Shown in pieces: positions 1 to 3,000 of a stretch of DNA of 38,732 bases. Position 1 is the first letter of the stretch. Each line of letters starts with the position of its first letter. A program made the position numbers. Source of the DNA: Abditibacteriaceae bacterium (GTDB lineage Bacteria > Armatimonadota > Abditibacteriia > Abditibacteriales > Abditibacteriaceae); the NCBI GenBank assembly GCA_031372065.1, contig JANMKN010000198.1, forward strand, positions 1 to 38,732. The letters are read 5' to 3'.

Positions 1-3000
1 CGCACTTATGTCTTGTATGTCCTCACTTATTGATAAGTGTGCGCCTACAAGCGATAAGTGAGCCGCCACACGCGATAAGTGAGGACATACAAGACATAAG
101 TGCGCTCATGCAGGACATAAGTTTGCCCACACAAGAGACAAACGGGCCACAACACACGATTTGTAGGGGCAAAGATGACCCGGCCCTGCTGCCTGAATCG
201 TAGCGTGAACCGGAACAGGGATAAATCCCACCCCCACATTCGTTGCACGCGCCTCCGCAAGCCAAAAGTGCCCCGCTACAGGAGATAGGAAGGCCACCAC
301 AGACGATAGACACGCCGCCATAGGCTAAAAACGCCCTCGACGGGGCCTCAAAATCTCACGGCAACAACTGGCGACCTTTGAGGAAAGCCTGACGTTCTTT
401 CGGAGTTTGAATATGCAGGCTCAAGGCTTCATATAAGGCGTCCAAATTCGCGACCTGTTGACTCATGCGTTTCACCAAAACACGCGCTAAAGGCCCCATA
501 TATTCAGCGAACTGGCGCTCGACGGTGTGCAAAGTTTCGGCATCCCACGCAACCACGGGAGCCGCAGGGTCCACAGCCGCAGAAGGCGCGGTTTGTGGTT
601 TATCGCTTGTCAGACGGTTTGTCGCCTTGAAAAAACTCTGGCGCTCTGTGTCGTTATGCAAAAACTGGCTGACGGCCTGACATAACGATTTCGCATCGCG
701 GTTTTCTTGTGAGTGTTGCCGCACCAAAACACGCGCCATCGGGCCGACAAAAACCGTTAATTCACGTTCGATTTGCTGCAAAACCTCGGCGTCCCAAGCG
801 GTTTCTGCGACAGCCGAAATTGCCACTACGTTTCCTAAGAGGGACGAATCGGGCGTCGAAATTAATTCACTCGCCTCGTGGCGATTCGCGGCGTGCAATA
901 AGGCCGCAATCGTATCGGACAAGCGCTCAAGGTGCAATTCCATCGGCGGCGTCAGCGCGTCCAACCAATGCGGCGTGCCGATAAAATAGCGCATATGCTT
1001 GGAAAGACTCACATCTTCGATGCGGAGCGGCACCACAGGCAAGCCTTCGCCAACCGCGTTTTGGATTTCGCGCTTGACTTGCTCGGATTGGTTGGAGGCG
1101 CCCGACAAAATCAGCAAAAAGACTTTCGCAGAAGTCAGCGCATCAATGATGGCGTCGCTCCAATCCATGCCTGGAATAATGTCGCGCGGCGCGACCCAGC
1201 ACCGAATGCCGCGCCCTTCCAAAGTGGCGCAAACCGCATCGGCCAAAGGTTTGTCTATGGATGAGTAACTAACAAAAACGTCGTGAGCCATGATGATTTG
1301 GAAACTTGGGACGAAGCACTCTCCTCACGAAAAGGCCTCGCTTAATTCAACACCGATTATGACATAATAGCGGCTCTGATGGCAGATAAAGCCACAAAAA
1401 CGGGAGAAGATTATGGAGTGGAAGAAGTTTCCACCAAGTGTGTAACATCGTCCGGGGAAGACTCGTTTTGCGATTTTTCGATGAGATAGCCCATCGCCAG
1501 AATCGCTTTGACGACTTGCTGCACTACCACACGGTCATAATGTTTTTCCATTTCCGAAAGGTCTTCGTAAAGCACCAAACAAGGATGTTCCTTGAGCGCA
1601 TCATTGCGAGCCGGGCCATAACGCCAGCCATCCGAGATGCGCTGATTCGCCCATACATCATGTGTGTTGCGAGCGAGCTTTTCCAAAAGCTCCTCCATGT
1701 CGTGGTCTAACGCAATGTGAGATGTGTCAAGGGGTGCCGGTCGGTATTCCAAAAAAAACCTCCTGAAACGCGTGAAGAAAAACGGGCGTGTGGTTATTTA
1801 TAGCGTTACTCAAAATGCCATTTCTGACAATGGAAGCAATAAGTCAATCGCCCATCATGCGACGAAAGCGTGCTTCTTGATCGCCGGACGCCTGAGAAGG
1901 TTTAATTTCCGCGTTGGCATCGCGCAAGGGCTGCACTTCACGATAAACAGCGATGTCGCGCGGCGTTTGATCCCATTTTTCGCGGCGCTGAAATAAAGCA
2001 AAAAAGCCCAATCCGAGGCGCCATTTCACGCGGTCTTGATGGCAAACGACCCATTGGCGCACTCCGACACTGACGGTTTCGCCGGGCGCGCCGCAAACCG
2101 GGCAAAAGCCGTAATCATCTTTGTCGCCATAAGCGCCTTGCGCCTCGTAATCTTCTTCGCTGACGAATTCTTCGTTGGAATCATCAAATTCGTCATCGAA
2201 AGCGTCCCGTGATTGATTCATAACCATTCACCCCTATAATTTGTCGTTGGCCTATCGTATACAATAAAGACATGACCGAACGCGCCGCGTGGTATTCACC
2301 TTATCAAGAAATGCTGATGGAAATCTTCAGTTTTTTCGGTTCGCTGGTAATGCTGGGCGCTGAAAGTTTCGGTTGTATGCTGCGCGGTGCGGTTTCCTAC
2401 AAAAACTTGATTCGCCAGATGGCCGAAATTGGTGTCGGCTCGCTGATGGTGGCCGTTGTCACCGTTGGCTTTTCCGGCGCCGTGACGGCGCTGTATATTT
2501 CGATTCAATTGGTGAAATACGGCCAGCCCAATTTAGTCGGCGGCATTGTCGGCAAAAGTCTGGCGCTGGAAATCGCGCCGGTGATTACCGCCATTGTAGT
2601 GGCCGCGCGCTCCGGCTCGGCCATGGCTGCCGAACTCGGTTCGATGACCGTGACCGAGCAAGTGGATGCTCTGCGCGCTTTGGCAACCAGTCCAGTGCAA
2701 TATTTGGTGGTGCCGCGCGTTTTGGGCAGCATCATCATGCTGCCTCTGATTACCGTGATTGCCAACGTGGCGGGTGTTTTTGGCGGCTATTTGGCGTCTA
2801 CCGTCAATGGCGTTTCGGCAACGCAGTTTATGACTTCGTTCCAAGACTACACCTATATCACCGATCAAGCCAATGGCCTTGTGAAAACGTTATCTTTCGC
2901 CTTGTTAATTTCGCTAATTGGTTGTCGCCAAGGCTTGACAACTACCGGAGGCGCTAAAGGCGTGGGCCGTGCGACAACTTCGGCTGTCGTTTTCTCCATG

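What a model noticed while it worked through the whole genome (the two positions that open the first line are those of the whole stretch)
356..2227. Chromosomal RyR-domain protein paired with a TIR protein: a cellular counterpart of phage RyDEP
A 113-aa protein that is nothing but one RyR (ryanodine-receptor R12) domain (g04569) lies 120 nt upstream of, and on the same strand as, a 311-aa TIR_2 + 2xDUF8082 protein (g04568), with a 127-aa zinc-ribbon protein (g04570) in front. Because phage RyR-domain proteins (RyDEP) were shown in 2026 to bind or hydrolyse the cADPR signals of Thoeris TIR proteins, I read this as a host-encoded TIR/RyR pair in which the RyR domain is receptor or built-in off-switch for the TIR product, and as the likely cellular source of the phage counter-defence gene. 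A cellular TIR-RyR module is in no defence catalogue I could search.
Evidence so far: pfam.tsv: g04569 RyR; Swiss-Prot table: 40-42% identity over 86-96 aa to R12 repeats of fly and mammalian RyR1/2 (E 3e-20); g04568 TIR_2 res 5-112 (6e-22), relatives.tsv adds DUF8082. neighbours.tsv: TIR_2 and RyR on genes at most 2 apart in 1618 of 4786 genomes that have both (share 0.34; 8 genomes of the order). RyR homologues at E<=1e-8 in 7 of 61 Armatimonadota sampled; G021 keeps the pair (61%/63% id, call 109); in other Armatimonadota the RyR gene abuts TPR-S/MAP3K_TRAF_bd proteins (2 loci) or a weak-DUF4231 protein (1 locus). In G021, G003, G006 (63-67% id) and weakly G011 the pair heads the operon that continues with the HAMP sensor, K channel-RCK-RyR and SLATT-like genes found here [...]
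(Added by a program. Inside this text positions count along the whole contig: contig position 1 is position 1 of the stretch shown here. "Call 12" and the like, gene names such as g00115 and contig names such as C1 are that model's own, and its searches are not shown. The text may have been shortened before it was handed on; [...] marks where a part breaks off. The agent that wrote the report below was given it as the finding of a first reader that could run no searches.)

Follow-up and report, generated by a model that had tools for sequence, protein, structure and literature searches.

The report
Haem-sensor TIR pathway with RyR receivers
The small ryanodine-receptor-domain gene and its TIR neighbour are the first two genes of a probable five-gene bacterial pathway, in which a membrane haem sensor appears to hold a TIR enzyme whose NAD-derived signal is read by RyR and SLOG pockets on a potassium channel and a second membrane protein; it is untested, and would link an outside chemical cue to a signal known mainly from antiviral immunity.

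Summary
The genes are real, but the pair is not the unit. The window's left end overlaps contig C60 by an exact 87 nt found nowhere else in the assembly. With relatives' synteny this gives the order RyR > TIR-DUF8082x2 > Cache_heme-HAMP (CHH) > K-channel-RCK-RyRx2 > SLOG-SLATT-like.

The TIR's tail carries the docking motif by which a kinase binds the NO-binding CHH receptor (10.64898/2026.05.25.727664). In this phylum 12 of 14 stand-alone CHH genes sit beside TIR-DUF8082; in two other phyla 13 of 13 examined sit beside non-TIR DUF8082 proteins.

The stand-alone RyR keeps RyDEP's H/W/H/D, but so do non-catalytic phage sponges, so 'off-switch' is unproven. The channel's repeats carry Asn there. 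Trees cannot decide whether this lineage gave rise to RyDEP (AU p=0.63). The zinc-ribbon gene is host backbone.

Best reading: a haem-ligand-gated TIR second-messenger system with RyR/SLOG receivers; nothing is shown biochemically. It was not found in nine literature searches. This scan noted CHH-TIR(+RyR) and TIR+RyR-channel modules before, on other genomes.

The parts
1411..1752 (-). Stand-alone RyR (R12-type) domain protein, 113 aa, 'long-arm' class; pocket residues H31, W34, H56, D73
   Evidence: Pfam PF02026 E 2.8e-33; residue mapping to RyDEP gp78; conserved in 15-sequence alignment A4
1759..1764 (-). Shine-Dalgarno-like AGGAGG, 6 nt before the TTG start of the RyR gene
   Evidence: read from the sequence
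956..1279 (-). TIR_2 domain (residues 5-112) of the 311-aa protein 356-1291; Glu75 at the catalytic position
   Evidence: Pfam E 1.4e-21; E75 invariant in 8 of 8 orthologues and aligned with the Glu of the WSKFE motif of TIR-STING 6WT6; the catalytic role of this Glu is established knowledge, not tested here
380..799 (-). Two DUF8082 helical repeats (about residues 165-304) with motifs GPMARVLV (183) and GPLARVLV (266): the HAMP-docking module of CHH-associated kinases
   Evidence: motif comparison with 10.64898/2026.05.25.727664; complex prediction weak support
1..136 (.). 21-nt-period repeat array with internal inverted repeat. Bases 1-87 (reverse strand) are identical to C60:230-316: the inferred join to the CHH (C60 678-1568), K-channel-RCK-RyRx2 (1593-3506) and SLOG-SLATT-like (3516-5555) genes
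   Evidence: gene order in relatives
1844..2227 (-). 127-aa genus-level backbone gene divergent from mlaE; NOT part of the module

Best explanation
The two genes head a membrane-to-membrane signalling operon. A dimeric Cache_heme-HAMP receptor with an extracytoplasmic c-type haem and no output domain holds the TIR protein through its two DUF8082 repeats, as the known receptor holds its kinase (inferred from homology, motif and synteny). A haem ligand (NO is the tested ligand of the Pseudomonas homologue; the ligand here is unknown) changes the HAMP and switches TIR activity, which converts NAD+ to an ADP-ribose-type messenger (inferred; Glu conserved). The messenger is read by the tandem RyR repeats at the end of a K+-selective pore-loop/RCK channel and by the SLOG domain of a SLATT-like membrane protein, changing ion flux or membrane state (inferred). 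The stand-alone RyR protein binds the same messenger. Within this reading I put it at about 45% a receptor subunit acting in trans on an effector, 35% a sponge that sets a threshold, and 20% a RyDEP-like hydrolase that ends the signal. Shown here: genes, domains, residues, gene order and co-occurrence. Not shown: any binding, catalysis, expression or phenotype.
For: Order RyR>TIR>CHH>channel>SLOG-SLATT in G002, G012, G018; up to the channel in G003; without an intact stand-alone RyR in G006 and G021; exact 87-nt overlap restores it here. CHH-DUF8082 coupling: 5 of 6 plasmid loci opened (of 10 hits) have a DUF8082 kinase directly downstream; 13 of 13 CHH loci examined in two other phyla have a DUF8082 protein adjacent, none with TIR; of 14 stand-alone CHH genes in this phylum 12 have TIR-DUF8082, 1 a cyclase-DUF8082, 1 a contig end. 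The published kinase motifs IGPLARFLVRK/IGPIARIVVSR bind the HAMP at about 90 nM and match the window's two motifs. Complex prediction of HAMP x2 + DUF8082: weak support, 0.37 against best control 0.00; the mark was reached by 116 of 157 solved and 2 of 215 mismatched pairs, but at 0.60 or under by only 18 solved and both mismatches; runs agree in at least 91% of contacts, partner pLDDT at least 69. CxxCH invariant in 8 of 8 CHH; cytochrome c assembly genes present. Channel: TIGYG filter here and in 9 of 12 relatives tested; Ion_trans_2, TrkA_N, RyR. SLOG fold: model pLDDT 83, Foldseek YpsA E 1.3e-7, then DprA and LOG, ThsA SLOG E 5e-3. 9 of 12 CHH+TIR loci have the stand-alone RyR directly upstream, in two gene orders and two families. 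Phage RyR domains bind 2'/3'cADPR and cADPR. Among the top 120 longer RyR proteins, 59 carry one N-terminal RyR on a TPR-S protein (54 with cyclase), and TIR, Nudix, SLATT, RCK and AAA fusions occur.
Against: No biochemical or expression data. The contig join rests on an overlap inside a repeat, and C60 carries 229 foreign-looking nt before it. Only 6 of 79 metagenomic loci with this TIR subfamily hold any RyR domain, 1 of 79 a CHH (median locus 5 kb), so the TIR subfamily as a whole is not tied to RyR. 14 of 34 RyR loci show no TIR within three genes. G006 lacks, and G021 has only a remnant of, the stand-alone RyR, so it is dispensable. In the four f31 genomes no channel-borne RyR was found. 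The CHH paper thinks it unlikely that the receptor modulates the flexibly linked kinase domain directly, and finds one kinase per receptor dimer, so how a tethered TIR would be switched is unclear. The channel's repeats have Asn at two pocket positions and may not bind cADPR. Every phage RyR protein tested belongs to a different structural class from the window's. The SLATT label is weak (NCBIfam SLATT_3 E 0.0017).
Confidence: 0.5

Rival explanations
1. The same five genes are a Thoeris-like anti-phage (abortive) system. The haem receptor reports infection or envelope damage, the TIR makes a cADPR isomer, the K+ channel and SLOG-SLATT protein kill or arrest the cell, and the stand-alone RyR damps accidental firing.
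For: TIR+SLOG, TIR+SLATT (type VII) and TIR+ion channel (type X) are verified Thoeris layouts. Patchy distribution: CHH in 9 of 27 family genomes, different flanks in different genomes, and insertion beside a backbone gene here. Caspase-TPR and TIR-NB-ARC genes flank it in G006, G012 and G021. Phages carry RyR sponges and, in IMG/VR, copies about 50% identical to the window's class.
Against: The TIR's tail is a receptor-docking module rather than a phage sensor. Neighbours here are mla, rplI, ppa and a PASTA kinase, and in relatives DJ-1/PfpI, isoamylase, an epimerase and a bestrophin-like gene. No PADLOC model for six of seven proteins. Elsewhere CHH modules sit in T6SS clusters with kinases.
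Confidence: 0.22
2. No dedicated cyclic messenger: the TIR is a slow NADase or a scaffold, and the RyR, RCK and SLOG domains sense ordinary nucleotides (ATP, ADP, NAD+, linear ADPR), coupling haem/redox state to K+ homeostasis.
For: Animal R12 binds ATP. RCK domains are ATP/ADP/NAD-regulated (abstracts listed). Nudix-RyR fusions exist. The best PDB matches of the TIR profile include adaptor TIRs.
Against: The catalytic Glu is invariant. RyR genes co-occur with many unrelated TIR and DUF4062 architectures, which fits a TIR-specific product.
Confidence: 0.15
3. One reading: an autonomous two-gene TIR/RyR defence pair in which the RyR protein is a RyDEP-like off-switch and the cellular ancestor of the phage gene.
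For: H/W/H/D all kept; one TIR-RyR fusion protein, P0217; the AU test does not reject grouping the window's clade with RyDEP/RyR Tad, and the constrained tree scored 9 log-likelihood units higher than the quick free tree.
Against: TIR-DUF8082 was next to CHH in every complete locus seen. Only RyDEP of nine tested phage proteins hydrolyses. Free trees place RyDEP and RyR Tad together, away from the window's class.
Confidence: 0.1
4. In this genome the pair is a stranded fragment: repeats inserted after the TIR gene have cut it off from the rest, or the contigs are not adjacent.
For: About 716 nt of repeats would lie between TIR and CHH, against 4-363 nt in family relatives, with a 53-bp-arm inverted repeat. 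The RyR-TIR gap is longer than in relatives (119 against 16-58 nt).
Against: All five ORFs are intact; RyR, TIR and CHH are under purifying selection. The genome holds exactly one DUF8082 protein and one CHH, so they remain each other's only candidate partner even if transcribed apart.
Confidence: 0.05

Closest known systems
Cache_heme-HAMP (CHH) receptor + PknB-like Ser/Thr kinase of Pseudomonas azotoformans (10.64898/2026.05.25.727664; parts 1-3 of 5 read; family paper 10.64898/2026.02.01.703092, passages)
   Same: Output-less DUF3365/Tll0287-HAMP receptor with CxxCH; adjacent gene ending in two helical repeats with the GPxARxxV docking motif.
   Different: The catalytic domain is a TIR, not a kinase, and RyR, channel and SLOG genes follow. 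'TIR' occurs 0 times in either main text. The ligand here is untested.
Thoeris types I, VII and X (10.64898/2025.12.03.692087; section 5 and passages read)
   Same: TIR with catalytic Glu next to SLOG-, SLATT-like- and ion-channel-bearing proteins.
   Different: The TIR is TIR_2 with a receptor-docking tail (ThsB_TIR below cut-off); there is a membrane haem sensor, two effectors and a stand-alone RyR protein; no evidence of phage sensing. 'RyR' occurs 0 times in that main text; its Fig. 1C and Table S1 (29 putative types) could not be seen.
Phage RyDEP (10.64898/2026.05.28.727677; parts 1-3 and 5 of 5, and supplementary table 1 read) and RyR Tad (10.64898/2026.06.04.730250; passages and section 9)
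   Same: PF02026 domain; H/W/H/D pocket at identical spacing.
   Different: Chromosomal and operonic; 30% identity, C-terminal half only; has the YxPxPxDTS arm shared with animal repeats instead of the phage proteins' N-terminal helices; activity unknown.
Animal RyR Repeat12, B. thetaiotaomicron 3NRT, and oomycete PKDRR channels (PDB hits; PKDRR paper PMC7399828 seen as a search listing only)
   Same: Full-length similarity of the stand-alone protein to R12 repeats; tandem RyR repeats on an ion channel. The C60 channel's second repeat reads H-W-N-N at the four pocket positions, as does the second RyR2 repeat in the alignment.
   Different: Two-TM K+ pore with RCK rather than a Ca2+-release or polycystin channel; the trees give no support for direct descent.

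Membership tests
RyDEP / RyR Tad | PF02026 domain with H75/W78/H100/D117 pocket | tested here: met
   H31/W34/H56/D73
RyDEP / RyR Tad | Phage-encoded anti-Thoeris gene | tested here: not met
   Chromosomal, beside mla/rplI housekeeping genes
RyDEP / RyR Tad | Binds or hydrolyses 2'/3'cADPR | not testable with these tools
   Residues do not separate hydrolase from sponge
RyDEP / RyR Tad | Same phylogenetic clade | tested here: inconclusive
   Separate in free trees; AU p=0.63 for joining
Thoeris | TIR domain with catalytic Glu | tested here: met
Thoeris | Adjacent effector with a signal-binding domain | tested here: met
   SLOG-SLATT-like and channel-RCK-RyR genes, via the inferred join and relatives
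Thoeris | Match to curated ThsB/ThsA models | tested here: not met
   ThsB_TIR 18.8 bits against cut-off 21.2; no Thoeris model in PADLOC 2023 or NCBIfam
Thoeris | TIR senses phage, makes an ADPR-type signal, and the system protects | not testable with these tools
   The tail points to a membrane receptor as the input
CHH receptor-kinase system | Cache_heme with CxxCH, transmembrane helices, terminal HAMP | tested here: met
   Tll0287-like + HAMP in the G002 orthologue, 79% identical to the C60 protein; CxxCH invariant
CHH receptor-kinase system | Adjacent partner with tandem docking repeats | tested here: met
CHH receptor-kinase system | Partner is a PknB-like Ser/Thr kinase | tested here: not met
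   Partner is a TIR; no other DUF8082 protein in the genome
CHH receptor-kinase system | Physical binding to the HAMP | tested here: inconclusive
   Prediction only: weak support, 0.37 against best control 0.00
CHH receptor-kinase system | NO binding with slow off-rate | not testable with these tools
   No Cys other than CxxCH in the sensor domain, as in the sensor-type member

The most novel reading that the evidence does not exclude
A bacterial, non-immune cADPR-type second-messenger pathway: NO (or another haem ligand) outside the cell activates a receptor-tethered TIR, whose cyclic ADP-ribose gates a K+ channel through tandem RyR repeats, with the stand-alone RyR protein as buffer or phosphodiesterase-like terminator. 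This would be a prokaryotic parallel of the animal NO-cADPR-ryanodine-receptor axis (recalled, not looked up) and a small, tractable system in which to ask whether R12 repeats are cADPR receptors that gate a channel.
Probability: 0.22. Interest if true: 0.92.

Novelty: new variant of a known kind. Interest (0 to 1): 0.74.

Why it matters
Both 2026 phage preprints leave open what RyR domains do in cells and whether the animal R12 region is a cADPR site. Here a cellular RyR protein, and a channel with tandem RyR repeats, are encoded with the TIR that could make their ligand, so the question can be tested with 100-640-aa bacterial proteins. The CHH paper reports no downstream pathway for its receptor; this operon offers one and shows the receptor's output is swappable (kinase, cyclase, TIR). 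If the trigger is a haem ligand rather than a phage, TIR-made nucleotides would be shown to serve environmental signalling in bacteria.

Tried and rejected
Zinc-ribbon ORF as a third component: rejected.

Catalytic dyad as proof of an off-switch: rejected. HWHD is found in 33 of 43 short cellular rows, 10 of 10 RyDEP-like and 23 of 24 RyR Tad-like rows (the short class includes a few fragments of longer genes).

Bridging the C363-C60 junction with public contigs: no contig covered C60:161-329, so no result either way. No RNA holder was listed.

Few supported branches; AU test undecided. No PDB animal sequences were in the trees.

Single-sequence fold of the whole SLOG-SLATT protein: pLDDT 45, not used. 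PDB sequence search with the SLOG alignment: nothing. Pfam on it: only YAcAr, weakly, in 8 of 15 members. Atlas search of the TPR-S-cyclase middle region: unnamed clusters; a local SLOG profile hit it in 7 of 12 such proteins at E<=7.5e-4 on a database size of 100, a lead only. Promoter/terminator scan: chance level.

Literature: nine searches listed no paper describing a cellular TIR-RyR or CHH-TIR system. The 2015 nucleotide-centric systems paper that defined SLOG/SLATT/TPR-S (recalled) is not held, and most subscription papers are not searched.
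Full report
1. Observation. The three ORFs exist at the stated coordinates. The 113-aa protein is one RyR domain (PF02026, residues 3-93, E 2.8e-33) and the 311-aa protein begins with TIR_2 (residues 5-112, E 1.4e-21). 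Its tail is DUF8082/PF26309 by the precomputed record and by atlas neighbours. The 127-aa ORF has only a sub-threshold zinc-ribbon hit. It is a real gene (73-78% identical in three congeners), but in two of them it lies beside mlaE with unrelated genes downstream, and in none beside the RyR gene. It is host backbone. RyR, TIR and the C60 receptor gene are under purifying selection, dN/dS about 0.14-0.19.

2. The pair is the head of a longer operon. The reverse strand of window 1-87 is identical to C60:230-316. That 87-mer occurs exactly twice in the assembly, and 669 of 820 contig ends have no second copy of their terminal 87-mer. The first 229 nt of C60 are 33% G+C against 55% for the genes that follow, and match nothing else. 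Downstream on C60 lie a 296-aa Tll0287/DUF3365-HAMP protein, a 637-aa Ion_trans_2-TrkA_N-RyR protein and a 679-aa protein. The same order, RyR > TIR > HAMP protein > channel > 679-aa homologue, is on one contig in G002 (last two genes each split in two ORFs), G012 and G018. G003 ends after the channel; G006 has no stand-alone RyR; G021 has a 35-aa remnant. Public contigs did not bridge the junction, so the join in this genome is inferred.

3. What the TIR's tail is for. Of 22 proteins found with the tail alone, 15 are Ser/Thr kinases, 2 class III cyclases, 3 TIR proteins and 2 have the domain alone. DUF3365-HAMP homologues on plasmids have a DUF8082-tailed kinase directly downstream in 5 of the 6 loci opened, of 10 hits. 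A 2026 preprint (10.64898/2026.05.25.727664; parts 1-3 of 5 read) shows that such a Cache_heme-HAMP (CHH) receptor binds NO and holds its kinase at about 90 nM through two repeats, IGPLARFLVRK and IGPIARIVVSR. The window's TIR has FVGPMARVLVR and YMGPLARVLVK. The coupling is near-obligate. In samples of 301 and 401 genomes from two other phyla, 10 and 4 had a CHH; 13 were examined (one unpublished genome left out) and all 13 had an adjacent DUF8082 protein, 10 recognisably kinases within the fetched stretch, none a TIR. In 401 genomes of this phylum 18 matched, 14 as stand-alone CHH: 12 beside TIR-DUF8082 (counting this genome through the inferred join), one beside a cyclase-DUF8082, one at a contig end. 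This genome has one DUF8082 protein and one CHH. TIR-DUF8082 proteins make up 16 of the top 150 clusters at 50% identity. A complex prediction gave weak support: 0.37 against a best control of 0.00. That mark was reached by 116 of 157 solved and 2 of 215 mismatched pairs, but at 0.60 or under by only 18 solved and both mismatches; contacts agreed in at least 91%, partner pLDDT at least 69. It adds little to the homology argument.

4. The receivers. The channel has the K+ filter TIGYG, also in 9 of 12 relatives tested, and two RyR repeats (residues 480-539 and 555-624). The N-terminal 235 residues of the 679-aa protein fold as a SLOG domain (pLDDT 83; Foldseek YpsA E 1.3e-7, then DprA and LOG; ThsA SLOG with 3'cADPR E 5e-3). 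Its membrane part is only weakly SLATT-like. In family f31 (four genomes, one a single contig) the order is RyR > CHH > TIR-DUF8082, divergent from a TPR-S-cyclase whose middle region weakly matches the same SLOG profile. There the stand-alone protein is the only RyR match in the genome. Thus 9 of 12 CHH+TIR loci have the stand-alone RyR directly upstream; G262 has it at a contig end, G021 a remnant, G006 none. One metagenomic locus (L118) has CHH > TIR-DUF8082 > SLOG protein without RyR.

5. RyR and TIR in general. 44 of 401 genomes of the phylum match the window's RyR at E<=1e-8. All 34 strongest places were opened: 20 have a TIR gene within three genes, over 9 families and many architectures (TIR-WD40, TIR-TPR, TIR-NB-ARC, TIR-DUF8082); one of these RyR copies is broken. 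The background in this genome is about 1.4% per 12 kb; it was not measured in the others. The converse is weak: of 79 metagenomic loci with this TIR subfamily, 6 hold an RyR domain, all on longer proteins, two of them near-duplicates. So RyR usually comes with TIR, but TIR seldom with RyR.

6. What the stand-alone RyR does. RyDEP gp78 was fetched; its H75, W78, H100 and D117 align with H31, W34, H56 and D73. The eight phage homologues in the preprint's table carry the same residues, six bind and none cleaves, and mutations in the same positions weaken binding by RyR Tad about 100-fold. The channel's repeats read HYNN and HWNN in this family and in f15, without the acid, which fits a non-catalytic site but could also mean another ligand. 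Fusions favour a receptor role: of the top 120 longer RyR proteins, 59 carry one N-terminal RyR on a TPR-S protein, and G011, G037 and G108 have the split form. Fusions to TIR (P0217), Nudix, SLATT, RCK-channel and AAA proteins also occur. I therefore rank trans-acting receptor subunit, then sponge, then hydrolase.

7. Source of the phage gene. The window's protein has the N-terminal YxPxPxDTS arm of animal repeats and 3NRT, which RyDEP and RyR Tad lack. Two quick trees put those phage proteins together (SH-aLRT 92-94), away from the window's class. The test that forces them together is not rejected (p-AU 0.63; constrained tree 9 log-likelihood units better). The claim is undecided. Separately, 17 of 23 IMG/VR loci found with the cellular profile match it at 44-53% over most of its length, and none showed a TIR in 3-kb flanks. 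These are better candidates for capture from cells than RyDEP is.

8. Mechanism. Most likely (0.5): haem ligand > CHH HAMP > tethered TIR > ADPR-type messenger > RyR-tailed K+ channel and SLOG-SLATT-like protein, with the small RyR protein binding the messenger. Every arrow is inferred. The weakest is activation: the kinase paper finds one partner per receptor dimer and doubts direct control of the flexibly linked enzyme, whereas TIR catalysis generally needs self-association (established knowledge); receptor clustering would be required. Defence (0.22) is the main rival. Caspase and NLR-like genes flank the module in three relatives, but housekeeping genes flank it here and glycogen/stress genes in others, and PADLOC has no model for the partners.

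9. Prior knowledge. The RyDEP text notes bacterial R12 proteins and 3NRT but describes no cellular operon (part 4 and the supplementary PDF not read; figures not held). The Thoeris survey does not mention RyR domains in its main text; its Fig. 1C and Table S1 were not visible and might list such effectors. Neither CHH paper mentions TIR. Nine searches found no description of the combination. This scan's own notes report TIR-NLR + RCK-RyR channel modules on six other genomes (seen after I had the operon order) and CHH-TIR, once with RyR upstream, on two (seen after I had reached that reading). They are unchecked notes and are not counted as support.

10. Verdict. Observation confirmed; interpretation partly supported and incomplete. 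A new variant that joins two known kinds of system, CHH receptor docking and Thoeris-like TIR signalling, with cellular RyR domains as probable receivers. Interest 0.74.

Noticed in passing
L040:1-229 (start of contig C60): AT-rich (33% G+C) tip with no other match in the genome, joined at the point where the 87-nt overlap with the window begins; possibly a chimeric end or a strain insertion.
   Followed up: partly
window 1-340; L040:230-420 and 482-640: Two repeat families between TIR and CHH: a 21-nt-period array with diverged copies on C281, C382 and C325 (74-76%), and a long palindromic element with many copies, several at contig ends.
   Followed up: partly
L291:1479-3177 (G304): CHH receptor followed by a class III cyclase with a DUF8082 tail: a third output for the same receptor.
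   Followed up: partly
L037:6260-8731; L043:4969-8004: RelA/SpoT-TPR-SLOG(LSDAT)-RyR fusion protein; in L043 it is followed by a stand-alone RyR and an RCK-RyR protein.
   Followed up: no
L030:6137-8161; L186:6609-8660; P0214 and relatives: RyR-TPR-S-(SLOG-like)-cyclase is the commonest RyR fusion found; it could convert an ADPR-type signal into a cyclic-nucleotide signal.
   Followed up: partly
P0213, P0217, P0280, P0205; L047:4503-6155: RyR fused to Nudix, TIR, SLATT, an RCK channel-like protein (short and long repeat in tandem) and patatin.
   Followed up: no
L214-L230: Viral contigs carrying RyR genes of the window's long-arm class at 44-53% identity with no TIR nearby: possible untested sponges of a second class.
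   Followed up: partly
L032:38-6171; L033:11427-16607; L170:6423-12427: The same upstream neighbours (isoamylase, GlcNAc-2-epimerase-like, with DJ-1/PfpI, a bestrophin-like or a ferritin-like/CDGSH gene) precede the RyR cassette in two families.
   Followed up: partly
L174-L178, L182, L190: A recurrent AAA-RyR + stand-alone RyR + TIR/DUF4062-NLR cassette in several families of the phylum.
   Followed up: partly
G000:C10:17847-18950 and C197:11035-12138: Two further TIR proteins of the same subfamily (50-55% identical domain) elsewhere in this genome could feed the same receivers.
   Followed up: no
L054-L059: CHH + kinase pairs lie in or beside type VI secretion clusters in 4 of 6 plasmid loci opened; the CHH paper's main text does not mention this.
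   Followed up: partly
window 2272-12414: Ordinary backbone: mlaE/F/D-like, rplI, inorganic pyrophosphatase, PASTA Ser/Thr kinase, HD protein, amidohydrolase.
   Followed up: yes
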